NCBI GenBank assembly: GCA_963713825.1
Contig: CAVQNG010000014.1
Span: 54,366 to 118,365 of the forward strand
From: an uncultured Acidobacteriota bacterium
GTDB lineage: Bacteria; Acidobacteriota; Thermoanaerobaculia; Multivoradales; JAHEKO01
Length of the DNA stretch: 64,000 bases
Direction of reading: 5' to 3'
Shown: piece by piece, positions 4,966 through 44,287 of the stretch
Layout: every line of letters begins with the position of its first letter
Numbering within the stretch: position 1 is the stretch's first letter
Notes under the pieces: generated by a model
What the model was told of the DNA's origin: nothing
The model's database searches: none
What the model saw: the letters and a program-made list of their open reading frames with translations, nothing else
Program-made: the position numbers and the translations under genes

Positions 4966-4972
4966 AAAGAAT

Positions 4973-8708: not shown

Positions 8709-8732
8709 AACCAGGACAGCGAGGAGTCAGGC

Positions 8733-11700: not shown

Positions 11701-11894
11701 AGGGTGCCTCCAGCATCGGCCTGAGCTACAAGAGCTTCGGCCTGACTCTGATTGGCGGTCTGACAACGGCGACCCTGCTTACCCTCCTGGTAGTGCCCGT
11801 CTTCTACACCTTCTTCGACGACGCCCGCGCCGCGGTCAGCGGCATCGTCAAACAGGCCCTGGGCAAGCGCCGCGCTGCAGCGACCACTTCGTGA
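8733..11894 (+). CDS. Efflux RND permease (HAE1, MdtC-like second permease)
   Basis: GAGGAG RBS 6 nt upstream of the ATG. AcrB-family TM and porter domains. It sits in tandem with the preceding permease, an arrangement that suggests a heteromeric MdtBC-type pump. Confidence 0.9.
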   Translation: MDSKDPTETVATETTAQESRLPQFSLDRRITVLMILLTMIVLGTVATISIPIELLPSGFAGPHLSVRVPWREAPSQEVLDKIVLPLEEELSTVAGIDQLNSYARTGFAMCNLMFKQGTDMDVAYREVRDRVERARIQMPDDVEQVFVYKDDASGIPIFFLGLAIDPAVVDVYNLVQDEIVLRLQRVEGVASVDAHGLEEKEILIELDRERTSAAGLNIYELAQQLSGDNFTLSSGTVYQGSKKLLLRSVARYHNLEELENRLVADNVRLRDIATVTYDLPEKTYRVRAMSRPAVALGINKEGDANTLETARRVEAVVEELRENPRLQLIEIATLFDQGEIIRESLDTMFDSGKVGGILALLVLFFFLRRVRMTLIVTLSIPVSIVIALTVMYFVGESLNILTLLALMISVGLLVDNSVVVAENIFRLHREGMPRRQACIQGAGEIALAIVMATLTTIVVFLPVSLVEGMGQFFLLRLSIPISVALLGSLLVALIFIPLFVFITLPEKEAENHEKPHPMAIGLKKAYDLTFGKLNYFYTKTLAFFLRRRLDLVLLVMAVFALTAALPMKQIKFVDVQDEDRGGFEINVNLPQNTTLEEAEEYFLVGESLIEEMAEDLDLDGWFIQHRSTYGSFQGWFKEERTNKVSPKEAMERVKERLPEKAGVKLYTGEDQQGDERQGKGTHTFKLEGEDAEALEVIAAQLEEIFASVEGVVGVKKVGDDTPSEMALVLDRERMQNQNINPMVVSAVVGYALRGETLPRYHQAGKEIPVVVRFQEEDRDSLDELNNFWVPTNDGAAVQLSSISEPRYLASAQRIFRTNKRTSREITLELREEEEEETRARLMAMASLIELPEGVIFGMGESMLGLSEDLQNMLFAGIVSVIFIYLLMGFLFESFILPLSIILTIPLASLGVYWAHFIFGLNIDFLGAVGLILLVGVVVNNGIVLIDYVTRLRHAGHSRHEALLLAAERRFRPIMMTALTTIGGMIPLTVQGASSIGLSYKSFGLTLIGGLTTATLLTLLVVPVFYTFFDDARAAVSGIVKQALGKRRAAATTS

Positions 11895-12862: not shown

Positions 12863-13639
12863 TCAGGGCGACCTGGAGATGCTTTCGTACCAGGCGTCGA
12901 TCTGCGTATCGGGAACGAACCCGAGCTTGGCTGCCAGGCCGAGGGACCCTGGGTTGTTTTCCATGGCGCCCCAGGCGGGGATCAGACCATGGTCCGCCAT
13001 GTGTCGGGCCAGGGAAAGGAAAGTCGCCGCTGCCAGGCCGCGGCGACGGTAGGGCTTGATGGTCTCGATCGAGACGTCCCACAGAGTATCGGTCGTGAAG
13101 GCGGCATAGCAGAAGGTGACTGGCAGCCCCTCGACGATGGCGATGGCCATGGGTCTCTTGGCCACCCAGTCGAGGTTGTATTCGTACCGGGAGGTTGCGG
13201 GGACATGGTCGAACGTGAGTCCAACAGCACTATGCCCTTCGGGGAGCAGGTCGATTCTGGCATCGACGTCGAGATCGGGTCGTTCGAGCTCTCCTTCCCA
13301 TCGATGCAGATGGACGCTGCTGCGTCGCCAGTCTGGCAGCGCTGCTTCCACGGCCATTCGGCTTTCCGGAGGTGCCAGGAGTTGCCACCCCTCTGGGACG
13401 TGTTGGCCCTGAGAGGCTGAACGACCGGCTTCGACGGCTTGCCGGATGAGGCTGACCCCTGGCATTGCATGGATCGCAGCGAATGGGTAGTCCCAGGATC
13501 GGGCGACGAAGCCTCTTTCCGGCTCTGACTCGGACCAGATGTCACAGCGCCCACTGACCAGCAGGCCCTTGAGATCGATCCACCTCGGCTCATCAGAGAG
13601 CGGCGAGGCTAGATGCGCAGGCGTTGGGGAGGGGCTCAT
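12863..13639 (-). CDS. GNAT-family N-acyltransferase with a ~120-aa N-terminal extension
   Basis: The C-terminus YRRRGLAAATFLSLARHMADHGLIPAWGAMENNPGSLGLAAKLGF is the GNAT motif A/B region (R-x-x-G-x-A). It sits between two VapBC pairs. Confidence 0.6.
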   Translation of the reverse strand: MSPSPTPAHLASPLSDEPRWIDLKGLLVSGRCDIWSESEPERGFVARSWDYPFAAIHAMPGVSLIRQAVEAGRSASQGQHVPEGWQLLAPPESRMAVEAALPDWRRSSVHLHRWEGELERPDLDVDARIDLLPEGHSAVGLTFDHVPATSRYEYNLDWVAKRPMAIAIVEGLPVTFCYAAFTTDTLWDVSIETIKPYRRRGLAAATFLSLARHMADHGLIPAWGAMENNPGSLGLAAKLGFVPDTQIDAWYESISRSP

Positions 13640-13670: not shown

Positions 13671-14072
13671 CTAGCTGGTGAAATCCTCGATGGTGACAGT
13701 CAGTTCGGGGCACTGTCTGGCGATGGCGGCATCACCGGTCACCAACGGTACCCCCAGATCCTGAGCCAGTGCGACGAAGTGGGCATCGTAGGCTGATATC
13801 TGTCTTTCGAGAGCGACGCTCAATACCTGGTCACCGTCTGGCTCGATCTCCTGATGGGAGAACACATCGCAGGCGGTCCACCAAACCGAAAAGGCCTGCG
13901 CTCGTTCGAGAACCCTGGCTCTGACCGCGGTGGCGAGGACATTGAGGAACTCACTGCGCCACAGGGTTGGCAGTTTCCAGTCGGGGTCCTGCTGATGGAC
14001 TCGGCGAGCGGCACCCGTTCGCTCACCCTCGATGAGCAGGTAGCTGACCAGATTTGTGTCGGCAATGATCAC
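13671..14072 (-). CDS. vapC: Type II toxin VapC (PIN domain)
   Basis: MIIADTNLVSYLL PIN N-terminus with conserved Asp5. ATGA overlap with the upstream antitoxin. Confidence 0.8.
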   Translation of the reverse strand: MIIADTNLVSYLLIEGERTGAARRVHQQDPDWKLPTLWRSEFLNVLATAVRARVLERAQAFSVWWTACDVFSHQEIEPDGDQVLSVALERQISAYDAHFVALAQDLGVPLVTGDAAIARQCPELTVTIEDFTS

Positions 14073-14302
14073 GGGCGGCCGCTCGTGCGAGCGCGGTCAA
14101 TCAGATCCTGGGTCAAGAGCTTGGCACCCTCCACTCGGAGAGCGTCGATCTGTTCCAGAGTAGGCGGGCCTGCCGGGGTGGAGAGCGCCTGCTCGAGAAG
14201 AACGAGGGCTTCCCGGCCAAGGCTGCGACGATGTGCCTCGGCCCGCTCCTTGAGTTTGTCGTGGAGTTCTTCGGGGACATCTCTGATGAGCACTCCTGGC
14301 AT
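14069..14302 (-). CDS. vapB: Type II antitoxin VapB (RHH)
   Basis: Internal start MPGVLIRDVPEELHDKLKERAEAHRRSLGREALVLLEQAL (ATG at 14302) chosen over the longer ORF. AT-rich promoter-like stretch at 14315-14350. Confidence 0.75.
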   Translation of the reverse strand: MPGVLIRDVPEELHDKLKERAEAHRRSLGREALVLLEQALSTPAGPPTLEQIDALRVEGAKLLTQDLIDRARTSGRP

Positions 14303-14423
14303 CTCGGGCGACCTCGCGTTCTTGGAATAGCGTAATGATAGCATAATGCTTACAAGCAAACAGGCCCAGTCTTCTGCAGAGGACGGAACTTGGTGTTGCG
14401 ATCTCGCAGGGCGAGGGCGGGTT

Positions 14424-15011
14424 CTAGACCGATTCCCAGGCGCAGGACACGAAGCGGCCATCGTGGGAAAGGGAGAGGTCGAAGGGAAGGGGTTGTCCTT
14501 GCCGTTGTGCTTGGGGGACCCTGTTCACCGAAACGATCTCGATCTCACTCGGGGTGATCTCGAGAAGACCTCCGAGGGCGGAGCTGGCCAGGCGTCGGAC
14601 CCGTTCCCTGAAGCCTTTCTCCAGGGACCCGGGGTCGGTTGAGGAATCCCCATCGAGGAGGAATTTCGGCTTCTCGCCGGCTTGGCTAGCGACGGCGTGC
14701 ACCCACTGGTCCGAGTGATCGAGCCAAACGCTGAATCGAGCCAGTCGATGGGTCACCTCAGCACGAGCGTCGCCAAGAATGACCTCGAAGTCGCGGGGTA
14801 TGAAGCGAACCTGTGAGTCGAGCTTGCGGAGAGCCTTGAAAGCGCTTTCCTTGGTCGCCCATAGCGACCATCGCATCTGGTGGACTTTGTCTGTGGCTGC
14901 TAGTAGCGCGATCTCGCGCGCTGAGAAGGCCCGGTTGTCGAAACGAGGGTGGATCGCGTCGGGCTGGCAGAGGGGATGCCGGAGGTCGACGACGTCGTTA
15001 CCGACTGGCAA
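14424..15011 (-). CDS. 4'-phosphopantetheinyl transferase (Sfp/EntD superfamily)
   Basis: WSLWATKESAFKALR (W/F-x-x-KE-A/S-x-x-K) and LSLSHDGRFVSCAW motifs. Last gene of the FAS-like cassette; overlaps the acyltransferase gene by 14 nt. Confidence 0.75.
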   Translation of the reverse strand: MPVGNDVVDLRHPLCQPDAIHPRFDNRAFSAREIALLAATDKVHQMRWSLWATKESAFKALRKLDSQVRFIPRDFEVILGDARAEVTHRLARFSVWLDHSDQWVHAVASQAGEKPKFLLDGDSSTDPGSLEKGFRERVRRLASSALGGLLEITPSEIEIVSVNRVPQAQRQGQPLPFDLSLSHDGRFVSCAWESV

Positions 15012-15744
15012 AGTAATCCTCTTCCATCCGCGCCAGCTTGGCGACGATCTGCTGGGCCAGATCCCGCGACCGCCGCAGGCCCTCGTGCAACGATTCGGGC
15101 TGAAAGAGCTCGAAATCGACGTGGAAGGTCTCTCCCAGGGCCGGAATGGTCGACCAGGTACGCTGCCCCTCGCCGCGGAGATACACGCACAGTGCTCTGC
15201 AGTCCTCGACAGCGCTCAGGATGCGGCCCGGGCCGTGAGCGACGGAATCCGCCTGTACTCGCCCAGTTCGGCTGCGCCCGCCCTCGGCAAAGATCAATGC
15301 CGTTTCGCCGCGGGAAAGCACGTGCTGCACTCTCTTGATTACGCCGGACACCTGTTGGCGCGGGCCGCCGCGCACCACGGGGATGCACTTCGTCACCCAG
15401 GCTGCAACGCGACTGAACCAGATCGACGCGAAGTTGTTGTACTCGGGGAGATTCCAGGGCATGCGGCGGTAGTTGAAGATGTACCACCAGGATCCACCTA
15501 GCGCCCAGGCCAGGATCGCCGAGTCCACCATGGTCAAATGGTTGGCGCAGATCAGGATCGGTCCGTCGCTCTGCTTGATCATGACTCGATACCGTCTCCG
15601 AAGCTCGGCCGCGTTCTCGATGCGGTAGCGCAACAGCACGCGCAACGTGAAGACGATCGGAGGAATCCAGACGATGGACGACAACCGACCAGCCTCGCGC
15701 TGGAGAGTCAGTGCGGCACGGGTGCGAAAGGGAAGCGCGGACAC
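14998..15744 (-). CDS. Lysophospholipid / 1-acyl-glycerol-3-phosphate-type acyltransferase (PlsC/LPLAT family)
   Basis: ICANHLTMVDS is the HxxxxD catalytic motif. FAEGGRSRTG is the FPEGTR-type acceptor motif. An N-terminal hydrophobic anchor is present. Confidence 0.8.
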   Translation of the reverse strand: MSALPFRTRAALTLQREAGRLSSIVWIPPIVFTLRVLLRYRIENAAELRRRYRVMIKQSDGPILICANHLTMVDSAILAWALGGSWWYIFNYRRMPWNLPEYNNFASIWFSRVAAWVTKCIPVVRGGPRQQVSGVIKRVQHVLSRGETALIFAEGGRSRTGRVQADSVAHGPGRILSAVEDCRALCVYLRGEGQRTWSTIPALGETFHVDFELFQPESLHEGLRRSRDLAQQIVAKLARMEEDYFASR

Positions 15745-15754
15745 AACTGTTGTT

Positions 15755-16003
15755 CTAGGAGACCCTTGCAGCGATCAACTGCACGGCGTCACCCACCGTA
15801 TTCACTGCGTCGGCATCCTCGTCCTCGACCTCGATGTCGAAGGCGTCCTCGAAGTCGAGGATGATGTCGACCAAGCGGGCCGAGTTCACCTGCAGATCCT
15901 GGAGGATGTTCGTGTTCTCACCCACCGACTCGAAGGCTTCCTGGTTCTTGACGAACGGCTTGATGATCTCGATCACCTTGGCGAAAATCTCGTCTCTCGT
16001 CAT
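15755..16003 (-). CDS. Acyl carrier protein (dedicated, cassette-encoded)
   Basis: 82 aa, acidic. EIIKPFV..LQDLQVNSARLVDIILDFEDAFDIEV has the ACP four-helix pattern, with the Ser in NSA at the DSL position. Confidence 0.7.
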   Translation of the reverse strand: MTRDEIFAKVIEIIKPFVKNQEAFESVGENTNILQDLQVNSARLVDIILDFEDAFDIEVEDEDADAVNTVGDAVQLIAARVS

Positions 16004-16027
16004 GGCTTCTTCCTGTCTCGCAGAGTG

Positions 16028-17314
16028 TTAGCCGTTCCAACGACGGAAGACTAGACACGAATTGACGTCTCCGAAGCCGAAACCGGCCTTGATGATGGTC
16101 TTCAGCTGCGGCATTTCTAGCACACTGTGGGGAATCGAGCCAGCGAAAGCTTCGATTTCCGGATGTACATCCTCGCAGTTGAGGGATGGATGAACGAATC
16201 CTCCTGTCAGCATGAGGACGCATGCCACCGACTCCATGCCTCCAGCGGCACCGAGCCCGTGCCCGATCATCGACTTGGTAGAGACAATCGGTGGAAAGTC
16301 CTCTGGCGAGCGACCGAGCGCTTTCGACCAAGCGTTGACCTCTCTTGGGTCGGCGCCGGTTGCTGTCAGATGCCCGTTGATCGCGTCTATCTCGCTCGGG
16401 TCGATACCCGCGTCATCGATCGCTTGGCGAATGCAGCGCTGCACTCCTGTGGGATTCGGGGCGGTCATGCTTCCGCCGCCGCGGTGGCCGCCGCAGTTGA
16501 TGGCACCGCCGAGGATCTCCGCATGGATTCGAGCTCCCCGTGCTGTGGCACTCTCGAGGCTCTCCAGGTGCAGGATCCCGGCGCCGCTGCCCGGCACGAA
16601 ACCGCCCGCTGAAGCGCTCATGGGCCGCGAAGCTCTCTCGGGTTCGTCGTTGAACTTGCGACAAAGCACTCGCATGGAGTCGAAGCCGCTCCAGTTGTAG
16701 TGACTGGATCCTTCGGTTCCGCCGCACAACATGCGCTTCGCCAAACCCGAACGAATGCGGTAGTACCCGTCGATGATCGCTTCGGAACCTGTGCTGCAGG
16801 CGCTCGAGTTGGACGTGACCTGGTTGCCGAGGGCCAGCAGGCCGGCGACTCGTGCAGAGACTCCGCTGCCCATGACCTGTTCCACCACCGTGCTCCCAAG
16901 CCGGCGGACGCGGCCGCTGTCGACCAGGGGCACAATCCGCTCGCCAACAGTGTCGAGGCCCCCGATGCCGGTGCCGATGATTGCACCCACATCCCAATCG
17001 ATGGCCGCATCGTCCAGCGGATCTGGTCGTTCATAGCCGGCGTCGGTCCAGGCATCCACTGCCGCGATGCAGCCGAAGCGGTGGCTCGAGTTCATCGCTT
17101 TCAGCTCGTCGGGCGCAAAGTACTGCTCGGCCAACTCGTCCACGTCCTGGGGCACACCGGCCACCTGGCAGGCGAACTTGAGCTCGGCCAGCAGGGGAAT
17201 GTGGCGAATCCCGGAGGTGCCTCTTCTCAGGGCTTGCTCATACGCTTCTGTGCCGGTGGCGTTGGGTGCCACGACGCCCAAGCCGGTGACGACGACACGG
17301 CCGCTCTCACTCAC
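16028..17314 (-). CDS. Beta-ketoacyl-ACP synthase I/II (FabB/FabF-type KAS)
   Basis: GTG start at 17314 (V-SESGRVVVTGLGVV) forms a GTGA overlap with the FabZ-like stop. Motifs: active-site Cys region NSSACSTGSEAI, Hs GHLTATG and IGHGLGAAG, and C-terminal GFGFGDVNSCLVF. The 692-aa track ORF is a read-through in this GC-rich frame. Confidence 0.85.
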   Translation of the reverse strand: MSESGRVVVTGLGVVAPNATGTEAYEQALRRGTSGIRHIPLLAELKFACQVAGVPQDVDELAEQYFAPDELKAMNSSHRFGCIAAVDAWTDAGYERPDPLDDAAIDWDVGAIIGTGIGGLDTVGERIVPLVDSGRVRRLGSTVVEQVMGSGVSARVAGLLALGNQVTSNSSACSTGSEAIIDGYYRIRSGLAKRMLCGGTEGSSHYNWSGFDSMRVLCRKFNDEPERASRPMSASAGGFVPGSGAGILHLESLESATARGARIHAEILGGAINCGGHRGGGSMTAPNPTGVQRCIRQAIDDAGIDPSEIDAINGHLTATGADPREVNAWSKALGRSPEDFPPIVSTKSMIGHGLGAAGGMESVACVLMLTGGFVHPSLNCEDVHPEIEAFAGSIPHSVLEMPQLKTIIKAGFGFGDVNSCLVFRRWNG

Positions 17315-17787
17315 CGCTTCACCCCCATTCCCGAAATTGTTCCCTCGCATACCAGGGTGCCGTCTGCGAGGGTCATGCTGGCTTTCGAGCGAATCTTGCT
17401 GCGGCGCCAGAATACCTTTGTGGCCGAGATGGTCACTTCCGTGTCCGGTGGCACCATGGCGAAGAACTCGACCTCGGCGTCGGCGAAAAGGGATACCGTC
17501 TGCTCGGCTTCCTCCAAGGTGTGATCGAGGGCGAACAGATAGATGCCCAGTGCCACGACGCCTGCTTGACCCAGCGCTTCCAAGAGGATGACACCGGGTG
17601 TGACGGGATCGCCTGGGAAGTGTCCGCGGTAGAAGTCGGCCTCGGGTCGAAATCGATAGGTTGCGACAATGTGTTCTTCGTCGATTTCCAGAATGCGGTC
17701 CACGAAGCGGAAGGGCTCCTGCTGGGGGAGCATCTCCAGAACCTGATCCGGAGTCAGTGGGCCGAGGACTTCTGCAGAGCCCTTCAT
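17311..17787 (-). CDS. fabZ: 3-hydroxyacyl-ACP dehydratase, FabZ-like hotdog fold
   Basis: FRFVDRILEIDEE...YRGHFPGDPVTPGVILLEALGQAG matches the FabZ signature (HFPG.P..PGV). ATGA overlap with the fabA stop. Confidence 0.8.
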   Translation of the reverse strand: MKGSAEVLGPLTPDQVLEMLPQQEPFRFVDRILEIDEEHIVATYRFRPEADFYRGHFPGDPVTPGVILLEALGQAGVVALGIYLFALDHTLEEAEQTVSLFADAEVEFFAMVPPDTEVTISATKVFWRRSKIRSKASMTLADGTLVCEGTISGMGVKR

Positions 17788-18374
17788 TCGCCCATCTTTC
17801 CGCCCCGAGAGTTTCTGGAGCGCCGAGGATAGTCTGGATAATCGATGTCGCGGAACATTCCCACTTTGGCCCGCTTGATCTCGTAGATCGGGTCGTCGTC
17901 GACGCAGACGGTCGCGTCACCGAGGACCACGGCTGAGCCAGAGGTCGCGAGCGTTTGGTAGCGCACGATGTCGACCTCGTACCGAACGATGCTATTGAAA
18001 GGCCGGATCTGCCCGGCGAACTCGACTTCGCCGCAGCCGAGGGCTCTACCCGAGCCAAGAGCACCTCGCCAGGCGCAGTAGAAGCCCAGAAGCTGCCAGA
18101 CGGCATCGACGCCGAGGCACCCCGGCTGCACCGGGTCCCCGAGGAAGTGACACTGAAAGAACCAATCGTCGACCCGAACGTCGCGCTCTGCGACGATTCG
18201 CCCGCGGGCCCGTTTCGAGGACACCTCGACGATGCGATCGATCATAAGCATCGGCGGCAGCGGCAAACCCGTTTTGAGCTCCGGTGGGGCGTCGTCGAAG
18301 AGAGAGCCGTGTGCGATTGCCAGCACCTCCTCGTGGGAGAAGCTGGACTGGTTCTGAAATTCTTCGTACTTCAA
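17784..18374 (-). CDS. fabA: 3-hydroxydecanoyl-ACP dehydratase/isomerase FabA
   Basis: PPMLMIDRIVEV, DDWFFQCHFLGDPVQPGCLGVDAVWQLLGFYCAW and GRALGCGEVEFAGQIRP align along the full length of E. coli FabA. TTG start at 18374 forms a TTGA overlap with the KAS III stop. The ATG at 18461 would overlap KAS III by 91 nt. Confidence 0.8.
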   Translation of the reverse strand: MKYEEFQNQSSFSHEEVLAIAHGSLFDDAPPELKTGLPLPPMLMIDRIVEVSSKRARGRIVAERDVRVDDWFFQCHFLGDPVQPGCLGVDAVWQLLGFYCAWRGALGSGRALGCGEVEFAGQIRPFNSIVRYEVDIVRYQTLATSGSAVVLGDATVCVDDDPIYEIKRAKVGMFRDIDYPDYPRRSRNSRGGKMGE

Positions 18375-19366
18375 GCCTGACCTCCGAACCGAAGGATGTA
18401 GCTCGACCAGGTGAGCCCCGAGCCCACACCGATGATGGCGATGTTGTCTCCGTCCTGCCATCGGTCCCAGTTCATGGAGATGACCGATGGTGCGGCAGCC
18501 GCCCCGGTATTCCCAAACTCGACAACATTGGAGTGATGGTGGTCGGCATCGACTCCGCAGCGCTCGCAGACTGTCTCGAGCATCCGGAGATTGGCCTGAT
18601 GGCCGATGAAGTGGAGGTCATCGGCCACTTCCGGGAACGCCTTCTTGAGGTCGCGGAAGCACCGAATGGTCTTCTTGATCGCGAACATCTGGACAGTCCG
18701 CCCCTCCTGATCGAAGTGACCGAATAGCGGTGCGATGACCTTTTCTCTTCCGGCAGGGCTCGAAGCCAGGGTATTGCCGAGAATCTCGGCTCGTCCGGGT
18801 CGGCGAGTCGAAAGGACGGCTGCGGTGGTGCCATCTCCCCACAGCACAGAGGCCGACCGGTCGGAGTAGTCGACGGTGGTTGTAAGGCTCTCAGGTGTCA
18901 CCAGCAAAATGAGCTCTGGTAGGGCCTCGGGGCGCATCATGGAGAGCATGTACAGGGCGGCCCACATACTCGTACAGGCCGAGTTGATATCGAACGCCGG
19001 GACCTCGAGCTCGAGGGCGTCGGCAATGGCGCAGGCGTCGGCCGGGGAGGACATCTCGGGCCGACTGGACCCGGCAATGACCAGGCCGATCTGATCCTTG
19101 TCGATACCGGCCCGCTGGAGGGCCATCTCGGCCGCCCTCTTGCCCGTCTCGGCATGGGAGTAGAGAGCCGCCTCGAGGGCCATGGAGGGGTCCGCATTTC
19201 GGGTGTCCCGAATGTAGTCGAGGGGCATTACGGTACGACGAGTCTCGATTCCTACCCTCTCTTCGATCCACTCCTGGCTCGTACCGATGTCGAGCTCTTC
19301 CAGGAATCGATTGGTGATCTGGACCTCGGAATGGAAATGGCCGAGGCTGTGCAGGAACAGGCTCAT
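18371..19366 (-). CDS. Beta-ketoacyl-ACP synthase III family (FabH-like)
   Basis: The N-terminus aligns to FabH (VQITNRFLEELDIGTSQEWIEERVGIETRR). Cys/His/Asn triad context: DINSACTS, IGHQAN, FGNTGAA. Confidence 0.8.
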   Translation of the reverse strand: MSLFLHSLGHFHSEVQITNRFLEELDIGTSQEWIEERVGIETRRTVMPLDYIRDTRNADPSMALEAALYSHAETGKRAAEMALQRAGIDKDQIGLVIAGSSRPEMSSPADACAIADALELEVPAFDINSACTSMWAALYMLSMMRPEALPELILLVTPESLTTTVDYSDRSASVLWGDGTTAAVLSTRRPGRAEILGNTLASSPAGREKVIAPLFGHFDQEGRTVQMFAIKKTIRCFRDLKKAFPEVADDLHFIGHQANLRMLETVCERCGVDADHHHSNVVEFGNTGAAAAPSVISMNWDRWQDGDNIAIIGVGSGLTWSSYILRFGGQA

Positions 19367-20319
19367 CGCGAGGCCCCCGAAATGCGTTCGCCACCGTCGA
19401 CCCGGATGATCTCGCCATTGATCCAGCTGGCCTCTGGCAGGCAGAGCAGGTAGATGGCATTGGCGACATCTGCAGGAGTGGTCAGACGATGGAAGGGGTT
19501 GCGGAGGCGGGCCAGCGCCTTGAGGTGGGCGCTACCCGGAATCATCCGCAGGGCATTCGTATCTGTGACGCCGGCTTGCACGATGTTGGAGCGAATTCCG
19601 TATGGCGCCATCTCGACTGCGATAGAGCGCGAGACCGATTCGAGCGCGACCTTGGCCGCAGCCACGGCGGCGTAGCCCTTCCAGGCGACTTCGTTGCCTT
19701 CGCTTGTGAGGCCGAGTACTCGGGCATCGGAAGCAAATAGGCCCCGTTCGAGGATCTCCTGCGTCCAGCCGAGGAGGCTCGTGCCCATGGCGTGAACGGT
19801 GCGCGCCATGTCCTCTTCTTCCAGGAAGAGGTCGGCCGAGTACTGCGGTGGGGTGGTGAGGCCCTGGACGCCGTCGCATCCCTCCTCGAACAGGCGGTCG
19901 GCAGTCTCCCGCACGACGCTCTCTTCGATGCCGAGTGCCGCGGCGAGCTGGGCGCCGGCCGTATCGTTGGACGGCGCTTCGGGTCCGACGAGTTTCAGGT
20001 TGCCGAAAGCGATGGAGTGGAGGAGGACCCGGATCTTGCCGCTCGGTGCGAGGGCCTCGGTCAGTGTGTCCAAGATCTCACTGCGGACCTCGGAGTCGAG
20101 GGCATCCCGGTTGAAGGTCACCAGGGAGACACCCCGCTGGCGGAGGCGCTCGAATTCCGGTTCGATCTTGCGCATCGCTCCCCGACGATCCCGGTGCACG
20201 ATGCAGAGGTTCAAGCCGTGTTCGGCCAGCTTGTGAGCGGTGGCCAGTCCAAAGCCGCTGGAACCGCCGAGGATCAGGGCCCATTCATCGGTGCTGAAGC
20301 GTGTCGCTGAGACGTTCAC
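19363..20319 (-). CDS. SDR-family reductase with FabI/FabL-type Tyr-x6-Lys (putative enoyl-ACP reductase)
   Basis: GTG start with an AGGAA RBS. ILGGSSGFGLATA glycine motif. YAAVAAAK gives the Y-x6-K spacing typical of enoyl-ACP reductases. First gene of the cassette; ATGA overlap with KAS III. Confidence 0.6.
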   Translation of the reverse strand: MNVSATRFSTDEWALILGGSSGFGLATAHKLAEHGLNLCIVHRDRRGAMRKIEPEFERLRQRGVSLVTFNRDALDSEVRSEILDTLTEALAPSGKIRVLLHSIAFGNLKLVGPEAPSNDTAGAQLAAALGIEESVVRETADRLFEEGCDGVQGLTTPPQYSADLFLEEEDMARTVHAMGTSLLGWTQEILERGLFASDARVLGLTSEGNEVAWKGYAAVAAAKVALESVSRSIAVEMAPYGIRSNIVQAGVTDTNALRMIPGSAHLKALARLRNPFHRLTTPADVANAIYLLCLPEASWINGEIIRVDGGERISGASR

Positions 20320-20654
20320 TCGGGTTTCCTTCCCGGTGGAGTGCAGGCTGAGACCACCGTAGATGCATCGACCGCAAGCTCGATGCCCGACTTAGCTATC
20401 TCCTTTGATCTGGGGACAGAGAATACCAAAGGGACCGGATCGAGGTGAAGCGAGAAGCCAACTACAGAACCGCCTCGAGTCGTGCCGAGCGAGCTCGCGG
20501 TTGATGGTCAGAGCCGTGTTCAGTGCGAATGACCGCTTATAGACTCATGGCTACTCATCAATTGGATTAGCTGCGCACGCCGCCTTATGATCGTTGGGTT
20601 GTTGGAACCATTGTGGTCGAGACTCTTGGGATGTGAACCGGAAGGAGGAGTTGC

Positions 20655-21863
20655 ATGTCGGGTGGAAGGTCGATTTATCTGATGGTGGGTTTAGTGTTGG
20701 TCATGCTGTTTTCGATCGTACCGGCTGAAGGGTCGGGTCGAGGGGCTGGAGACTTCGAGTCGTGGGAGTGGGACGTGATCAAGCCGAGTGATCGTTTCGA
20801 TGGAAGCTGGTCGCCGCGGGCTGGGCTTCAGGTGGTCAAGCTGCGCAACACCTTTTACCTCATGGGCGGACGAACTCCGAAGCCACCCAGCTTCCCTCCA
20901 ATTCCCGGCGATAGCATCATTTGGGGAGACGTTTGGAAGAGTCGTAATTTGGGACGTACCTGGGAGAGAATTCTCGACACCGACTCCCCAGGTCACTGGC
21001 CCGCTCGTGCCTACTTTCAGGTCGTGAAGAAAGGCGGGTGGATGTACGTGGTCGGAGGACAGAACTTCAAGGCCGGCCCGGTCGACTGCCCCGTAGACGT
21101 GCCGATTTGCTCCGACTTTTTCAGTGATGTCTGGCGCAGCAAGAACGGTGTCGACTGGGTCGAGCTGACCGACGATGCTGGCTGGGAGCCTCGTGCAGGT
21201 CTCAGCAGTATTGTCTTCCGAGGCGAGATCTATGTGATGGCTGGTTCTCAGAATGATGACGAGTCGATTGGTCCCGGCGGTCCGGCCAGGATCTACTTTG
21301 ACGACGTCTGGAAGTCTCGCAATGGCAGGGATTGGGAGCTCGTGACCCAACATGCCCCGTGGGAAGCGCGAGCCGGCGCGGTCCTGGTAGAGAAGAACGG
21401 CTATATGTACTTGCTGGGGGGAGAGGAAGGATTCGTTTGCGATCCACTGCCGTTTTGCGAACCCCCGTACTTCAACGACGTATGGCGGTCGCGGAACGGT
21501 GCCGACTGGGAGCTGGTCACCGAGGCGGCTGGATGGTCTCCGCGACCCGGGCACCAGTGTGCCGTGGTGTTGAACAACTTCGTCTGCTTCGGCGGCTTTG
21601 GCCTTCTCGAGAATCCACAGGACGTCTGGGTCAGCAAGAACGGTGCGGACTGGCGGCAGGTCAATGACTCACCGTGGAACTCGACCTCGGCGGATGACAT
21701 CAAGTACGACTTCGACGTCTTGGTGGTGCGGGGCGGCAAGCGAGGACAGCGCCCATCGATCTTCACCTTCGGCGGCGATCGGGAGACCTTCGATTTCACC
21801 GACCCCACCAACTTTCTGAGAGTCGACAACGACGTCTGGAGATACTCGCCGCCCAAGCACTAA
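20655..21863 (+). CDS. Secreted Kelch-type beta-propeller protein
   Basis: GGAAGGAGG RBS and a signal peptide MVGLVLVMLFSIVPAEG. Six repeats of the D(V)W(K/R)S.NG.DWE.V blade motif. Confidence 0.75.
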   Translation: MSGGRSIYLMVGLVLVMLFSIVPAEGSGRGAGDFESWEWDVIKPSDRFDGSWSPRAGLQVVKLRNTFYLMGGRTPKPPSFPPIPGDSIIWGDVWKSRNLGRTWERILDTDSPGHWPARAYFQVVKKGGWMYVVGGQNFKAGPVDCPVDVPICSDFFSDVWRSKNGVDWVELTDDAGWEPRAGLSSIVFRGEIYVMAGSQNDDESIGPGGPARIYFDDVWKSRNGRDWELVTQHAPWEARAGAVLVEKNGYMYLLGGEEGFVCDPLPFCEPPYFNDVWRSRNGADWELVTEAAGWSPRPGHQCAVVLNNFVCFGGFGLLENPQDVWVSKNGADWRQVNDSPWNSTSADDIKYDFDVLVVRGGKRGQRPSIFTFGGDRETFDFTDPTNFLRVDNDVWRYSPPKH

Positions 21864-22245: not shown

Positions 22246-23316
22246 ATGCGTCTGTCGAAGATGATCCAAGCGGTTGACACCCATGTTTGCGGTGAGCCCG
22301 GGAGGGTGATCGTCGGTGGGGTGCTGGATGTTCCCGGCTCGACGATGTTCGAGAAGATGCGGTATCTCGAAACCGAGGCTGACGACCTGCGGCTGAGGAT
22401 GCTCCGGGAGCCGAGGGGCTATCCGGCGACCTGCTGCAATCTCATCCTGCCGCCGACCCATCCAGATGCGCACGCCGGTTACGTGATCATGGAACAGGTC
22501 GAGTACCCGGGGATGTCGGGCACAAACACGATCGCGGTGGCTACGGTGCTCATCGAGACGGGGATGGTGCCATCGCAAGAGCCAGTAACCGAGTTACTGC
22601 TCGAATCCCCAGCTGGCCTGATCGCGATTCGGGCAGACGTACGAGGGGGAAAAGTCGAGCGTGTGACTTTCGAGAATGTCCCGGCGTTCCCGGTCCAACT
22701 GGACGCCGAGGTCGAAGTGCCCCATATCGGCAAGGTGAATGTCGATGTAGCCTATGGCGGTATGTTCTACGTCATCGCGGATGCCGATCAGTTGGGACTG
22801 AGCTTGAGCGCCGCCGAAGGGGGGGAGGCCGCTCGGGTCGGAGAGATGATCAAGGCGGCGACCATCGAGCAGCTCGAAACGCCGGTCCATCCGGAGAACC
22901 CTGACATTCGGGGCGTGACGATCAGTCAATTGTCGGCTCCATCGACCAACCCGATCGCCGACCGCAAGAACACGGTGATCGTCTCCTCGGGCGAGCTGGA
23001 TTGGAGTCGGCCCAGCACCTGGACAGGTGTCCTCGACCGTTCCCCCTGCGGCACCGGCACATCGGCCAAGATGGCCTGTCTGTGGGCCAAAGGCCATCTA
23101 CCGCTCGATCAGGACTTCGTGCACGAGGGAATCTTGGGTACGACCTTCACTGGCAGGCTGGTGCGAGAGACAAAGGTCGGCAATATCGAGGCCGTTGTGC
23201 CAACGATCTCTGGCACTGCGTGGATCACGGGGTTCGCCCAGTACGTGGTCGATCCCGACGACCCCTTTCCCAATGGGTTTACCGTAGGTGACATCTGGGG
23301 CGGACAGGAGGAGTAA
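22246..23316 (+). CDS. Proline racemase-family enzyme (4-hydroxyproline epimerase / 3-hydroxyproline dehydratase-like), Ser/Cys active-site pair
   Basis: GGGGAGGGG RBS. MSGTNTIAV stands where epimerases carry MCGH(G), so the first catalytic Cys is replaced by Ser. DRSPCGTGTSAKMA retains the second catalytic Cys. Confidence 0.85.
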   Translation: MRLSKMIQAVDTHVCGEPGRVIVGGVLDVPGSTMFEKMRYLETEADDLRLRMLREPRGYPATCCNLILPPTHPDAHAGYVIMEQVEYPGMSGTNTIAVATVLIETGMVPSQEPVTELLLESPAGLIAIRADVRGGKVERVTFENVPAFPVQLDAEVEVPHIGKVNVDVAYGGMFYVIADADQLGLSLSAAEGGEAARVGEMIKAATIEQLETPVHPENPDIRGVTISQLSAPSTNPIADRKNTVIVSSGELDWSRPSTWTGVLDRSPCGTGTSAKMACLWAKGHLPLDQDFVHEGILGTTFTGRLVRETKVGNIEAVVPTISGTAWITGFAQYVVDPDDPFPNGFTVGDIWGGQEE

Positions 23317-23320
23317 GGGA

Positions 23321-24289
23321 ATGGTACAGATCATCCCTCTTGAAGTCATTGAACGCGTTCTGAAACGGATCGATGTCGTCGGGCTGATGGAGGAGGGCTT
23401 TGTCGCCTATTCTGAAGGGCGGGCGATGGTGCCGCCCGTCGGCGAGCTGATCTTCGAAGATCCACCGGGCGAAACCCACATCAAGTATGGCTACATCCGG
23501 GGCGGAGATCACTATGTCATCAAGATCGCCTCGGGTTTCTATGGGAATTCCGAGATCGGCTTGCCGTCGGGCAGCGGCTTGATGCTCCTTCTCAGCCAGA
23601 AGACAGGCTTCCTCGAAGCGGTCTTGCTCGACGAGGGCCGTCTCACCGATGTGCGGACCGCTGCGGCTGGTGCCGTGGCCGCTAAGCACCTGGCGCCGAG
23701 TGAGGTTCGGCGCATCGGAATTCTGGGTGGAGGAGTGCAGGCTCGACTCCAGTTGGAGCTCATGCTGCCGTTCATCTCGTGTCGGCAGGTCCTGGTTTGG
23801 ATGCGCGATCCCGCCGAGGCCGAGCCCTACCTGCAGTACTTCGCAGACTCGGATGCGGAGATCGAGATTGCAGGTAGTGCCGAGGAGGTCGCCGATGGCT
23901 GCAATCTGATCGTAACTGCGACTCCCTCCAAGACACCATTGCTTTCGGCGGCGAGCATCCAAGCCGGGACTCATATCACCGCCATTGGCTCGGATACGGT
24001 CGACAAGATCGAGTTGGCTCCGGAAATCCTCGGCAATGCGGACCTGGTTGTGGTCGACAGTCTCTCTCAGTCGGAAGCTCGGGGCGAGGTCTTTCGAGCT
24101 GTGGATGCGGGAGCACTGAGTCGCGAGACCGTTGTCGAGTTGGGTGCCGTCGTCGCGGGCCACGCTACGGGCCGAGTCGATGACAGCCAGGTGACCGTTT
24201 GCGACCTGACCGGAGTCGCCGTGCAGGACCTGATGATTGCCCAGGGCGTGAAAGACGGGGCCGACCCGGAATCAAGTCACGAGTTCTGA
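23321..24289 (+). CDS. Ornithine cyclodeaminase / mu-crystallin family protein (candidate delta1-pyrroline-2-carboxylate reductase)
   Basis: Start MVQIIPLEV at 23321 with an AGGGA RBS right after the preceding stop. Rossmann motif RIGILGGGVQA. OCD-family C-terminus. Confidence 0.8.
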   Translation: MVQIIPLEVIERVLKRIDVVGLMEEGFVAYSEGRAMVPPVGELIFEDPPGETHIKYGYIRGGDHYVIKIASGFYGNSEIGLPSGSGLMLLLSQKTGFLEAVLLDEGRLTDVRTAAAGAVAAKHLAPSEVRRIGILGGGVQARLQLELMLPFISCRQVLVWMRDPAEAEPYLQYFADSDAEIEIAGSAEEVADGCNLIVTATPSKTPLLSAASIQAGTHITAIGSDTVDKIELAPEILGNADLVVVDSLSQSEARGEVFRAVDAGALSRETVVELGAVVAGHATGRVDDSQVTVCDLTGVAVQDLMIAQGVKDGADPESSHEF

Positions 24290-24361
24290 ACAAGAGCTCC
24301 GTATTCGGATTTGGCTCGTTTCGTGTCTGTGGCTGAAGTGAATCTGTAACGGAAGACGGCA

Positions 24362-26369: not shown

Positions 26370-26388
26370 GGTGACAGGAGCGAAGAGA

Positions 26389-27318: not shown

Positions 27319-27378
27319 GCCACCGAGAGGAATGAGGATCTCCCAGCCTGACGGGATCACACGGATAGGAGTTTTGGT

Positions 27379-44210: not shown

Positions 44211-44287
44211 GGTCTCTCTCCCATCCTCGGCCGTGGGCATCCACGGTCGTCAGGCTCGAGAGAAATAGACCGAAGCCAGGCTAGGTG

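What the first reader, a model, noticed from the sequence alone, without database searches (positions are those of the whole stretch)
14424..20319. Self-contained, fully translationally coupled FAS-II-like cassette with its own ACP, PPTase and PlsC-type acyltransferase
Eight same-strand genes: FabI/FabL-like reductase, KAS III, FabA, FabZ-like, KAS I/II, ACP, LPLAT, PPTase. Every junction is either a 4-nt start/stop overlap (ATGA, TTGA, ATGA, GTGA) or at most 24 nt apart. A dedicated carrier protein, its activating PPTase and a terminal acyltransferase imply that a specialised acyl chain is built and then transferred to a lipid acceptor. The FabA plus KAS pair may make it cis-unsaturated. This is not housekeeping fatty-acid synthesis, and FabD and FabG are absent. 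The cassette resembles aryl-polyene and other specialised-lipid clusters but with a different gene set. It is flanked by a toxin-antitoxin islet, suggesting accessory status.
Basis: partly seen in the sequence, partly recalled or inferred. Interest (0 to 1): 0.7.

Follow-up and report, generated by a model that had tools for sequence, protein, structure and literature searches.

The report
Portable second fatty-acid synthase operon
An intact eight-gene operon encodes a nearly complete second fatty-acid synthase with its own unusual carrier protein, activating enzyme and lipid acyltransferase; the same cassette recurs in hundreds of mostly uncultured bacteria, and its lipid product is still unknown.

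Summary
Eight intact, same-strand (minus) genes at 14424-20319 encode an enoyl reductase, KAS III, FabA, a FabZ-like dehydratase, KAS I/II, an ACP, a PlsC-family acyltransferase and a PPTase. The junctions are ATGA, TTGA, ATGA, GTGA, +24 nt, +10 nt and a 14-nt overlap. Every domain call passes Pfam's cut-off and the catalytic motifs are conserved.

The gene order is kept in all 80 related loci fetched (Gemmatimonadota, Myxococcota/'Deltaproteobacteria', Binatia and other MAGs). Nucleotide homology stops at the cassette ends and the flanks differ. Relatives optionally add FabG, FabD or a ~1,870-aa single-chain acetyl-CoA carboxylase.

The ACP is not AcpP. It belongs to a distinct clade with N-S-A-R at the phosphopantetheine site instead of D-S-L-D. 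This clade also sits in smaller ER-DH-KS-ACP-PPTase modules coupled to other off-loading enzymes (type III PKS, MBOAT, glycosyltransferases).

Best reading: an accessory, insulated type II FAS that borrows FabD and FabG from the host. It probably builds a cis-unsaturated chain and hands it to its own acyltransferase.

I could not test whether housekeeping fab genes exist elsewhere in the genome. A similar five-gene core has been noted, by annotation only, in Coxiella burnetii. Verdict: new variant of a known kind, moderately interesting.

The parts
20420..20449 (-). Putative sigma-70-type promoter: -35 TTCACC at 20449-20444, an 18-nt spacer ending in TG, and -10 TATTCT at 20425-20420, about 100 nt upstream of the ER start.
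   Evidence: Conserved in the closest relatives L006 and L007, and nucleotide homology with L006 begins exactly here. This is an inference; the generic promoter scan did not pick it and was not above chance.
20365..20386 (-). Hairpin in the 5' leader (GCATCGA...TCGATGC).
   Evidence: Predicted by folding. The pairing is partly kept in L006. Function unknown and evidence weak.
19363..20319 (-). Enoyl-ACP reductase, a divergent SDR of the FabL/FabI class, 318 aa, with an insertion of about 65 aa (residues ~100-165).
   Evidence: PF13561 E 1.1e-39. Best NCBIfam model is FabL, but below its cut-off. Best PDB match is B. subtilis FabL 3oic. The Y-x6-K motif (GYAAVAAAK) is conserved across 58 orthologues.
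18371..19366 (-). KAS III (FabH-like initiating condensing enzyme), 331 aa.
   Evidence: PF08545 and PF08541. NF006829 scores 183 bits, below its cut-off of 249. The Cys/His/Asn motifs are conserved in 66 orthologues.
17784..18374 (-). FabA-type 3-hydroxyacyl-ACP dehydratase/isomerase, 196 aa.
   Evidence: NF003509 scores 205.8 bits, above its cut-off of 124. PDB FabA matches at E ~1e-43. It is 43% identical to E. coli FabA with the catalytic His (CHF) and Asp (GVDA) conserved.
17311..17787 (-). FabZ-like dehydratase (His/Glu type; orthologues also match the ApeI-like family), 158 aa.
   Evidence: PF07977 at 68.3 bits. The FabZ models score below their cut-offs. The GHFP and LLEA motifs are conserved. 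Precomputed ApeI-like and ApeP-like hits appear on orthologues.
16028..17314 (-). Elongating KAS I/II (Cys-His-His), 428 aa, in a clade separate from FabF and FabB.
   Evidence: PF00109 and PF02801. FabF scores 298.6 against a cut-off of 493.75, and FabB 241 against 630. PDB FabF and FabB give similar scores. Cassette orthologues are 66-92% identical, whereas the best housekeeping KAS in the plasmid collection is 37%.
15755..16003 (-). Dedicated acyl carrier protein of the 'NS-type' clade, 82 aa.
   Evidence: PF00550 at 25.8 bits. It falls below all AcpP cut-offs. It is 32% identical to E. coli AcpP, with VNSARLVD aligned to ADSLDTVE. This motif is invariant in 80 orthologues. About 130 of the best 150 library representatives carry N-S at this site.
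14998..15744 (-). PlsC/LPLAT-family acyltransferase, 248 aa.
   Evidence: PF01553 at 43.7 bits. The NHxxxxD and EGGRSR motifs are invariant. The AF2 model has pLDDT 74, and its only significant PDB fold match is human GPAT1 8e4y. A sequence profile finds no PDB entry.
14424..15011 (-). 4'-phosphopantetheinyl transferase of atypical two-part build, 195 aa.
   Evidence: PF01648 at 42.3 bits. The GNDVVDL, WxxKExxxK and SLSH motifs are conserved. A profile search of the PDB hits only PPTases, weakly: AcpS 3qmn at E 2e-4 for the N-terminal half, and AASDHPPT 2cg5 at E 2.5e-3 for the C-terminal half.

Best explanation
This is an accessory, largely self-contained type II fatty-acid synthase operon. 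It is one architecture within a wider family of ER-DH-KS-ACP-PPTase 'acyl-chain modules'.

Shown by sequence: all eight enzymes are intact and carry their catalytic motifs. The carrier protein belongs to a separate clade from AcpP. The cassette is a conserved, discrete unit.

Inferred mechanism:
- The co-encoded PPTase converts the private ACP to its holo form. The ACP's recognition helix reads N-S-A-R where AcpP has D-S-L-D.
- Host FabD loads malonate onto this ACP.
- KAS III primes the chain from an acyl-CoA, and the KAS I/II elongates it.
- Host FabG reduces the 3-keto group.
- The FabZ-like enzyme and FabA dehydrate the intermediate, and the FabL/FabI-class reductase saturates the enoyl bond.
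- At about C10, FabA isomerises trans-2 to cis-3 and the KAS carries the double bond forward. This gives a cis-monounsaturated chain without oxygen.
- The finished acyl-ACP is used by the cognate PlsC-family acyltransferase to esterify a lyso-glycerolipid (most simply 1-acyl-glycerol-3-phosphate) at the membrane.

The net effect is a plug-in route to a particular membrane acyl chain, kept apart from the housekeeping pool.
For: Domain calls and catalytic motifs. Tight translational coupling. No consensus promoter or terminator hit on the coding strand inside the cassette, although that scan was not above chance.

Conservation and context:
- Eighty of 80 related loci are colinear.
- Nucleotide homology with the ~80%-identical relatives L006-L008 ends at 14408/14434 and 20339/20449, and their flanks are unrelated to the window and carry different genes in each.
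- Integrase and transposase genes lie within about 3 kb upstream of the cassette in L003 and L004.

Sequence distance from housekeeping enzymes:
- Identity to 'delta-type' (Myxococcota/Deltaproteobacteria-labelled) cassettes is KAS 69%, FabA 67% and ER 66% (median). The best housekeeping FabF/FabB in the plasmid collection is 37% identical to the KAS.
- The ACP fails the AcpP models (59.1 against a cut-off of 66; 45.3 against 70.45).
- E. coli AcpP does not detect the ACP by tblastn at 1e-4.

The NS-type ACP clade occurs with homologous ER, DH, KAS and PPTase genes next to other off-loading enzymes:
- a type III PKS in cultured Flavobacterium poyangense;
- an MBOAT;
- glycan-modifying genes.
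The KAS in these modules is 39-52% identical to the window's.

Other points:
- Some relatives carry their own FabG, FabD and a single-chain ACC. This shows which functions the window version must borrow.
- None of the 80 best genome loci comes from a cultured strain, including cultured Gemmatimonadota.
- Literature precedent: Coxiella burnetii CBU_0038-0034 has the same core order FabH-FabA-FabZ-FabB-ACP. It is inferred to be horizontally acquired, coexists with the vertical fab cluster CBU_0493-0497, and transposon insertions reduce intracellular growth (PMC5423948; bioRxiv 10.64898/2026.05.14.724635).
Against: - There are no product data of any kind.
- The rest of the host genome could not be searched, so coexistence with housekeeping fab, acpP, acpS and plsC genes is inferred, not shown.
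- FabA and KAS III are missing from one LPLAT-coupled relative (L091), so unsaturation is not obligatory for the family.
- No PPTase ORF was found after the LPLAT in the ten Gemmatimonadota-type loci examined; one of them (L014) is masked by N there and L021/L031 show no ORF at all. The invariant N-S-A-R site therefore does not strictly need a linked PPTase.
- The LPLAT is too divergent to match PlsC structures by sequence, and the only fold match is GPAT1 at TM 0.53. Its acceptor is unknown.
- High cross-phylum identity could reflect strong constraint rather than transfer.
- Taxon labels of the nearest MAG contigs are inconsistent (Thermoanaerobaculia, Acidobacteria, Polyangiaceae).
Confidence: 0.5

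Rival explanations
1. The cassette is simply the organism's housekeeping fatty-acid and phospholipid operon (fabI-fabH-fabA-fabZ-fabF-acpP-plsC-acpS), with fabD and fabG encoded elsewhere.
For: The gene set covers every housekeeping function except FabD and FabG. Some relatives add FabD, FabG and an acetyl-CoA carboxylase, giving a complete set. The proteins are strongly conserved. No other fab gene lies in the 64-kb window, so the alternative was not directly excluded.
Against: The ACP fails every AcpP model and has N-S-A-R instead of D-S-L-D. All enzymes except FabA score below their equivalog cut-offs. Flanks differ among ~80%-identical copies, and mobile-element genes lie within about 3 kb in some loci. 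Homologous ER-DH-KAS-ACP-PPTase sets sit inside PKS and glycan clusters, including in a cultured Flavobacterium. No cultured Gemmatimonadota appears among the 80 best loci. The Coxiella counterpart coexists with a vertical fab cluster.
Confidence: 0.1
2. The cassette makes a specialised, non-bulk lipid. The acyltransferase would load the chain onto an acceptor other than lysophosphatidic acid (for example a lyso-aminolipid, a glycolipid or an outer-membrane lipid), or the product would be a pigment or signal as in aryl-polyene-type clusters.
For: Relatives of the ER-DH-KAS-ACP module are coupled to a type III PKS, an MBOAT or glycosyltransferases, which points to specialised acylations. The LPLAT is very divergent from characterised PlsC enzymes. 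Orthologues of the FabZ-like protein match ApeI-like and ApeP-like families.
Against: The full reducing set, including a Y-x6-K enoyl reductase, predicts an ordinary mostly saturated or mono-unsaturated chain, not a polyene. There is no chain-length factor, no aromatic-starter gene and no conserved linked export or tailoring gene. A dedicated ~1,870-aa ACC in the Myxococcota-type versions suggests bulk flux. HX4D acyltransferases of this family most commonly act on lyso-glycerolipids (established knowledge).
Confidence: 0.25

Closest known systems
Coxiella burnetii CBU_0038-CBU_0034 horizontally acquired fatty-acid synthesis block (FabH-FabA-FabZ-FabB-ACP)
   Same: It has the same five-gene core order as window KAS III-FabA-FabZ-KAS-ACP. 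The published donor inference (Deltaproteobacteria, Thermodesulfobacteriota, Spirochaetes) overlaps the lineages where I find the cassette. It coexists with a vertical fab cluster and is read as an extra unsaturated-fatty-acid route (PMC5423948; bioRxiv 10.64898/2026.05.14.724635).
   Different: Only five genes are described there. ER, LPLAT and PPTase are not reported as part of it. The function is assigned by annotation only. I could not obtain the Coxiella sequences, so orthology is untested.
FabA-FabB oxygen-independent unsaturated fatty-acid pathway of alpha- and gamma-proteobacteria (including the alphaproteobacterial fabA-fabB-fabI operon)
   Same: A true FabA-type dehydratase/isomerase (His/Asp site, 43% identical to E. 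coli FabA) is paired with an elongating KAS and a dedicated enoyl reductase (S. meliloti FabI2, abstract of PMC11616126 seen).
   Different: The proteobacterial pathway works on the housekeeping AcpP and has no private ACP, PPTase or acyltransferase. The KAS here is neither FabB nor FabF by model scores. The hosts are non-proteobacterial and mostly uncultured.
Rhizobial acpXL-fabZXL-fabF2XL-fabF1XL-adhA2XL-lpxXL cluster (very-long-chain fatty acid of lipid A); comparison from my own knowledge
   Same: A dedicated ACP, dedicated dehydratase and KAS genes, and a terminal acyltransferase sit in one operon, while the remaining FAS steps are borrowed from the host.
   Different: The rhizobial acyltransferase is of the LpxL family, not PF01553. 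That cluster has no FabA, KAS III, ER or PPTase, and it extends a housekeeping chain rather than priming de novo.
Aryl-polyene (APE) biosynthetic gene clusters
   Same: Both are type II FAS-like sets with a private ACP, ApeI/ApeP-like dehydratases and a PF01553 acyltransferase.
   Different: APE clusters have a KS plus chain-length-factor pair, ketoreductases, aromatic-starter enzymes and LolA/MMPL export genes, and no enoyl reductase. None of this pattern is met here.
PUFA synthases (pfa) with a dedicated PPTase and, in myxobacteria, a fused AGPAT domain; comparison from my own knowledge
   Same: The design logic is the same: a secondary lipid synthase with its own PPTase, FabA-like dehydratase chemistry for oxygen-independent cis double bonds, and a direct hand-off from carrier protein to a 1-acylglycerol-3-phosphate acyltransferase.
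   Different: PUFA synthases are giant multidomain type I enzymes with tandem ACPs. Here all functions are discrete proteins and one double bond at most is expected.
ER-DH-KAS-ACP(-PPTase) mini-modules found here (L085-L088), for example next to a type III PKS in Flavobacterium poyangense
   Same: The ER, FabZ-like DH, KAS, NS-type ACP and two-part PPTase are homologous (KAS 39-52%, ER 31-45%, ACP 39-52% identical). They show the same dependence on host FabD and FabG.
   Different: They lack KAS III, FabA and the LPLAT. Their off-loading partners are a type III PKS, an MBOAT or glycosyltransferases. To my knowledge they are uncharacterised.

Membership tests
Housekeeping bacterial type II FAS (fab/acpP cluster) | The carrier protein is the AcpP orthologue with the D-S-L-D phosphopantetheine site. 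| tested here: not met
   TIGR00517 scores 45.3 against a cut-off of 70.45, and NF002150 scores 59.1 against 66. The site reads VNSARLVD. E. coli AcpP gives no tblastn hit at 1e-4.
Housekeeping bacterial type II FAS (fab/acpP cluster) | FabD and FabG are encoded with the other fab genes. | tested here: not met
   No FabD or FabG is present in the cassette or in the 64-kb window.
Housekeeping bacterial type II FAS (fab/acpP cluster) | FabH, FabF, FabZ and FabI reach NCBIfam equivalog or subfamily cut-offs. | tested here: not met
   FabH scores 183.2 against 249, FabF 298.6 against 493.75, FabZ 74.2 against 113 and FabL 124.9 against 328.
Housekeeping bacterial type II FAS (fab/acpP cluster) | It is the only FAS gene set in the genome. 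| not testable with these tools
The indirect evidence points against this.
FabA-FabB anaerobic unsaturated fatty-acid pathway | A FabA-type dehydratase/isomerase with a His/Asp active site. | tested here: met
   NF003509 scores 205.8 against a cut-off of 124. PDB FabA matches at E ~1e-43. The CHF and GVDA motifs are conserved, and identity to E. coli FabA is 43%. TIGR01749 is below its cut-off (175.6 against 238.15).
FabA-FabB anaerobic unsaturated fatty-acid pathway | A FabB-type KAS I able to elongate cis-3-decenoyl-ACP. | tested here: inconclusive
   The FabB model NF005935 scores 241 against a cut-off of 630, and the FabF models score slightly higher. PDB FabB and FabF give similar scores. 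Substrate range cannot be read from sequence.
FabA-FabB anaerobic unsaturated fatty-acid pathway | It operates on the housekeeping AcpP. | tested here: not met
   A private NS-type ACP is encoded in the operon.
Aryl-polyene (APE) gene cluster | A KS plus chain-length-factor pair and no enoyl reductase, so the polyene is retained. | tested here: not met
   There is a single elongating KAS with the full Cys-His-His triad plus a KAS III. A Y-x6-K enoyl reductase is present.
Aryl-polyene (APE) gene cluster | Linked aromatic-starter genes (ammonia-lyase, CoA-ligase, thioesterase), a glycosyltransferase, and LolA/MMPL export genes. | tested here: not met
   None lies adjacent in the window, and none recurs in the flanks of 80 loci. 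The RND pumps at 5106-11894 are separated from the cassette by a GNAT gene and the toxin-antitoxin pair, and are not conserved neighbours.
Rhizobial AcpXL/LpxXL very-long-chain fatty-acid cluster | The terminal acyltransferase is of the LpxL (lipid A lauroyl acyltransferase) family. | tested here: not met
   The acyltransferase is PF01553 (PlsC/LPLAT) with an HX4D motif.
Coxiella-type acquired FabH-FabA-FabZ-FabB-ACP block | Contiguous gene order FabH, FabA, FabZ, KAS, ACP on one strand. | tested here: met
   The window order at 19366 to 15755 is KAS III-FabA-FabZ-KAS-ACP. The order in Coxiella is taken from PMC5423948.
Coxiella-type acquired FabH-FabA-FabZ-FabB-ACP block | Sequence orthology of the five proteins. 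| not tested
   The Coxiella, Spirochaeta africana and Desulfatibacillum sequences could not be retrieved. The FabA search was saturated by metagenomic cassette copies.
PlsC/LPLAT (PF01553) glycerolipid acyltransferases | HX4D catalytic motif, the EGTR-like motif and a GPAT/AGPAT fold. | tested here: met
   NHLTMVD and EGGRSR are invariant in 28-79 sequences. PF01553 scores 43.7 bits. The AF2 model matches GPAT1 8e4y with probability 1.00 and E 1.9e-4.
PlsC/LPLAT (PF01553) glycerolipid acyltransferases | Acceptor is 1-acyl-sn-glycerol-3-phosphate (true PlsC). | not testable with these tools
   TIGR00530 scores 32.1 against a cut-off of 102.95, and a sequence profile finds no PDB PlsC. A biochemical assay is needed.
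4'-phosphopantetheinyl transferases (PF01648) | An ACPS domain with the Mg-binding GxD motif and the WxxKE(A/S)xxK motif. | tested here: met
   PF01648 scores 42.3 against a cut-off of 25. The motifs are invariant. The only PDB hits of the profile are PPTases, and they are weak. The single-sequence structure prediction failed (pLDDT 38).

The most novel reading that the evidence does not exclude
The cassette is an orthogonal fatty-acid synthase. Its carrier protein has a re-coded recognition helix (Asp35 to Asn and Asp38 to Arg relative to AcpP, invariant across the clade). This would make it invisible to the housekeeping AcpS and poorly used by housekeeping enzymes, so a private PPTase, private condensing, dehydrating and reducing enzymes, and a private acyltransferase channel one chain type straight into a defined lipid position. 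On this reading the NS-type ACP clade defines a previously unrecognised, widely transferred family of plug-in 'acyl-chain modules' whose output is set by the attached off-loading enzyme: PlsC-type here, and type III PKS, MBOAT or glycosyltransferase elsewhere. The FabA-bearing version would give Gemmatimonadota, Myxococcota and relatives an oxygen-independent unsaturated-lipid route once thought to be confined to Proteobacteria.
Probability: 0.3. Interest if true: 0.75.

Novelty: new variant of a known kind. Interest (0 to 1): 0.55.

Why it matters
If the reading is right, many uncultured Gemmatimonadota, Myxococcota and related bacteria carry a transferable second fatty-acid synthase that is insulated from the primary one.

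- It would extend the FabA-type, oxygen-independent route to unsaturated lipids well beyond alpha- and gamma-proteobacteria.
- It would define a carrier-protein clade (N-S-A-R site) with its own PPTase family.
- It would provide a natural example of an orthogonal FAS with a built-in hand-off to a membrane acyltransferase. That is of interest for membrane adaptation in low-oxygen sediments and for engineering tailored lipids.
- It would give a functional framework for the poorly understood second fab cluster of Coxiella burnetii.

If it is only a paralogous fab operon feeding the general pool, it is ordinary.

Tried and rejected
1. Finding housekeeping fab or acpP genes. None lies in the 64-kb window or in about 1 Mb of related loci; E. 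coli AcpP, FabD, FabG and AcpS used as tblastn probes found only cassette-linked FabD and FabG.
2. Linking to Coxiella by sequence. A FabA search with a 'delta-type' query returned only metagenomic cassette copies of at least 70% identity. An ACC search returned only uncultured Myxococcota and 'Deltaproteobacteria'. Cluster look-ups of 30 ACP representatives named only Flavobacterium.
3. Plasmid carriage. The best KAS match in 72,556 plasmid records is 37% identical, so no close copy is there.
4. Mobile-element borders. No flanking direct or inverted repeats of note were found.
5. Promoter and terminator scan. It was not above chance.
6. Rfam. The only hit in the window is a distant tRNA.
7. 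LPLAT profile against PDB sequences. No hit.
8. PPTase structure from a single sequence. The model is unusable at pLDDT 38.
9. Aryl-polyene, ladderane and sponge 'swf' clusters. These were considered and rejected on gene content.
10. Literature. Searches found no paper describing the eight-gene cassette.

Full report
OBSERVATION. The window has about 61% G+C with no compositional break at the locus. On the minus strand between 20319 and 14424 there are eight intact ORFs. Read directly from the sequence, the junctions are:
- ER/KAS III: ATGA overlap.
- KAS III/FabA: TTGA overlap.
- FabA/FabZ-like: ATGA overlap.
- FabZ-like/KAS I/II: GTGA overlap.
- KAS-ACP: 24-nt gap.
- ACP-LPLAT: 10-nt gap.
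- LPLAT/PPTase: 14-nt overlap (TTG start). This is the only detail that differs from the finding.

An RBS-like GGAAGGA lies 7 nt before the GTG start of the first gene. A simple scan found no consensus promoter or terminator hit on the coding strand inside the cassette, but that scan was not above chance.

PROTEIN IDENTITIES. NCBIfam adds an important nuance: only FabA reaches an equivalog cut-off (NF003509, 205.8 against 124). The reductase, KAS III, KAS I/II, FabZ, ACP, acyltransferase and PPTase all score well below the cut-offs of the housekeeping models. They are family members but not the standard orthologues.

Motifs checked over 58-80 orthologues are all conserved:
- The reductase has the Y-x6-K signature of FabI/FabL/InhA-type enoyl reductases, not the Y-x3-K of FabG. 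Its best solved relative is B. subtilis FabL. It carries an extra segment of about 65 residues.
- KAS III has Cys/His/Asn.
- The elongating KAS has Cys/His/His.
- FabA has the His/Asp pair and is 43% identical to E. coli FabA.
- The FabZ-like protein has His/Glu.
- The acyltransferase has NHxxxxD and EGGRSR.
- The PPTase has GNDVVDL, WxxKExxxK and a C-terminal SLSH.

The acyltransferase model (pLDDT 74) has one significant structural neighbour, human GPAT1. No PDB entry is found by sequence profile. The PPTase profile hits only PPTases, weakly: AcpS over its first half and the N-terminal half-domain of human AASDHPPT over its second half. It therefore looks like an atypical two-part PPTase. 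A single-sequence structure prediction failed.

DISTRIBUTION AND SYNTENY. The acyltransferase has hundreds of close homologues (64-87% identical). The few that carry a source name are labelled Longimicrobiales or Palauibacterales, both Gemmatimonadota. All 80 best loci come from MAGs. The four closest are labelled Thermoanaerobaculia, Acidobacteria or Polyangiaceae. About 55 further loci are Gemmatimonadota-type, mostly labelled Gemmatimonadota. The 20 most distant (46-52% on the acyltransferase) are mostly labelled Myxococcota, 'Deltaproteobacteria', Binatia or Thermodesulfobacteriota. The window's own host is therefore uncertain.

In all 80 loci the detectable cassette genes are colinear on one strand. 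Median identities to the window for ER/KAS III/FabA/FabZ/KAS/ACP/LPLAT/PPTase are:
- Gemmatimonadota-type: 75/70/72/64/77/70/65/45%.
- 'Delta-type': 66/58/67/60/69/59/49/36%.

By contrast, the best housekeeping FabF/FabB in 72,556 plasmid and mislabelled chromosome records is 37% identical to the KAS.

Nucleotide homology with the relatives L006-L008 (~80% identity) starts and stops at the cassette ends (14408/14434 to 20339/20449). Their flanks show no similarity to anything in the window and carry different genes in each: CotH/DUF4956; TPR-S and an epimerase; a metallo-beta-lactamase. Only L005 (89% nucleotide identity) shares the antitoxin side. Two Longimicrobiales loci have integrase and transposase genes within about 3 kb upstream of the cassette. 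No flanking repeats mark a mobile element in the window.

VARIABLE PERIPHERY.
- Seven delta-type loci insert a classical FabG (Y-x3-K) between FabA and FabZ.
- Two place FabD in front of the reductase.
- Sixteen of the 20 delta-type loci continue into a single-chain acetyl-CoA carboxylase of about 1,870 aa, with biotin carboxylase, biotinyl and carboxyltransferase domains. This protein is found only in uncultured Myxococcota and 'Deltaproteobacteria'.
- At least three loci lack the reductase.
- No PPTase ORF was found after the acyltransferase in the ten Gemmatimonadota-type loci examined, though one of them is masked there.
- Lower-G+C relatives include KAS III-FabA-FabZ-KAS-ACP-LPLAT-PPTase (L089) and FabD-ER-FabG-DH-KAS-ACP-LPLAT-PPTase-ACC-like without KAS III or FabA (L091).

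The stable core is DH-KAS-ACP-LPLAT, usually with KAS III and FabA. The window version lacks malonyl transfer and ketoreduction, which some relatives encode themselves.

THE CARRIER PROTEIN.
- The ACP is 32% identical to E. coli AcpP over 56 residues.
- Its phosphopantetheine site aligns as VNSARLVD against ADSLDTVE.
- This site is invariant in 80 orthologues.
- An exhaustive search of 1.84 billion representatives found 143 with E of 1e-10 or better. About 130 of the best 150 carry N-S at this position (NSAR 83, NSAN 28, NSSR 9, NSAH 4), and only one has DSLD.

This is therefore a distinct ACP clade. In AcpP the acidic residues flanking the serine are part of the surface recognised by AcpS (established knowledge). 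Their replacement by Asn and Arg is a rationale for a co-encoded PPTase, but this is inference.

RELATED MINI-MODULES. Contexts of other members of this ACP clade show a recurrent ER-like SDR / FabZ-ApeI-like DH / KAS / ACP set, with or without the PPTase. It occurs next to different off-loading enzymes:
- FAD-oxidoreductase, methyltransferase and type III PKS in cultured Flavobacterium poyangense.
- An MBOAT within a glycosyltransferase cluster.
- DegT, PglD-like and GT2 genes.

Their proteins are homologous to the window's: KAS 39-52%, ER 31-45% with the same GYAAxxxAK motif, DH 30-43%, ACP 39-52% and PPTase about 28% identical. The window cassette can therefore be described as this module plus KAS III, FabA and a PlsC-type acyltransferase.

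MECHANISM. See the best explanation for the full sequence of steps.
- Shown: intact enzymes, a private ACP clade, a conserved and discrete operon, and the absence of FabD and FabG.
- Inferred: activation by the cognate PPTase, use of host FabD and FabG, de novo priming by KAS III, FabA/KAS-dependent cis unsaturation, and hand-off of acyl-ACP to the acyltransferase for esterification of a lyso-glycerolipid.

A putative promoter (20449-20420) and a leader hairpin (20386-20365) are conserved in the closest relatives.

RIVALS. The housekeeping reading is disfavoured by the non-AcpP carrier, the sub-threshold model scores, the context variability, the mini-module relatives and the Coxiella precedent. 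It could not be excluded directly, because the rest of the genome is out of reach. A specialised non-phospholipid product remains possible, because the acyltransferase's acceptor is unknown. An aryl-polyene-like product is unlikely given the enoyl reductase and the missing hallmark genes.

LITERATURE. No paper describing the eight-gene cassette was found. The nearest description is the C. burnetii block CBU_0038-0034 (FabH, FabA, FabZ, FabB, ACP). It is inferred to be horizontally acquired from Deltaproteobacteria or Spirochaetes, with best hits in Spirochaeta africana and Desulfatibacillum. It coexists with the vertical cluster CBU_0493-0497, and insertions in CBU_0035 and CBU_0038 reduce growth in Vero cells (PMC5423948). 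[quoted passage not shown] All of this rests on annotation, and I could not verify orthology with the window.

VERDICT. It is a new variant of a known kind: accessory type II FAS sets with a dedicated ACP. Its notable points are the breadth of its distribution in uncultured phyla, the FabA outside Proteobacteria, the NS-type carrier clade with its own PPTase, and the modular choice of off-loading enzyme. Interest 0.55.

Noticed in passing
window 13671-14308 (-): A VapC-like PIN toxin (13671-14072) overlaps by 4 nt a FitA/Arc-type RHH antitoxin (14069-14308), immediately downstream of the cassette. A GNAT acetyltransferase lies at 12863-13639. The closest relative L005 shares the antitoxin side; the other relatives do not.
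   Followed up: partly
window 3628-11894 (+) and 48462-51572 (-): An HlyD-type membrane-fusion protein is followed by two tandem RND (AcrB-family) pumps of 1200 and 1053 aa, an MdtABC-like arrangement. A third RND pump lies elsewhere in the window. None is conserved next to the cassette in other genomes.
   Followed up: partly
window 22246-28906 (+): A run of genes resembles a hydroxyproline/proline-derivative catabolic cluster: proline-racemase family, ornithine cyclodeaminase/mu-crystallin, a PD40/DPPIV_N protein, a DHDPS-family enzyme and an aldehyde dehydrogenase. A Kelch beta-propeller protein (20655-21863) precedes it and is divergent from the cassette.
   Followed up: no
window 39654-45016 (-): A 1528-aa Ser/Thr kinase-nSTAND1 NTPase-WD40 protein lies next to a sigma-70 region-2 (ECF-like) protein. 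A second kinase-TPR protein is at 53463-56117.
   Followed up: no
window 32850-34172 (+): A DUF222 plus HNH endonuclease gene stands alone among short ORFs and may be a selfish element.
   Followed up: no
window 58890-58963 (-): This tRNA gene is the only Rfam hit in the window. Nearby lie DUF6933, an acyl-CoA dehydrogenase (59069-60964) and a dynamin-like GTPase (60986-62818).
   Followed up: no
L066-L084, e.g. L068 8518-14163 and L082 9366-14972: A single-chain acetyl-CoA carboxylase of about 1,870 aa (BC-BCCP-CT, some with an ACC_central domain) is encoded directly after the PPTase in 16 of the 20 Myxococcota/'Deltaproteobacteria'-type cassettes. All 120 best database relatives come from uncultured organisms.
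   Followed up: partly
L085 5370-10754 (Flavobacterium poyangense GCA_011751075.1): The gene run is FAD-oxidoreductase, methyltransferase, type III PKS, FabZ/ApeI-like DH, KAS, NS-type ACP and ACPS PPTase. It is probably a phenolic-lipid (alkylresorcinol-type) cluster that uses the same private ACP/KAS/DH/PPTase set.
   Followed up: partly
L086 6476-9249, L087 6481-10216, L088 3763-8621: ER-like SDR, DH, KAS and NS-type ACP mini-modules are embedded in glycan-type clusters, next to DegT/PglD-like/GT2 genes, a GT2 gene, or an MBOAT plus PPTase. This suggests fatty acylation of sugars or glycolipids by the same module family.
   Followed up: partly
window 19363-20319 (-), residues ~100-165 of the reductase: The reductase has an insertion of about 65 residues relative to FabL/FabI. 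It is present in the LPLAT-type cassettes (316-325 aa) and absent from the 256-266-aa reductases of the mini-modules. Its role is unknown.
   Followed up: no
L045 8759-9955, L053 8775-9980, L054 9012-10208: In some Gemmatimonadota-type loci a DegT/DnrJ/EryC1-family aminotransferase follows the acyltransferase where the PPTase normally sits.
   Followed up: partly
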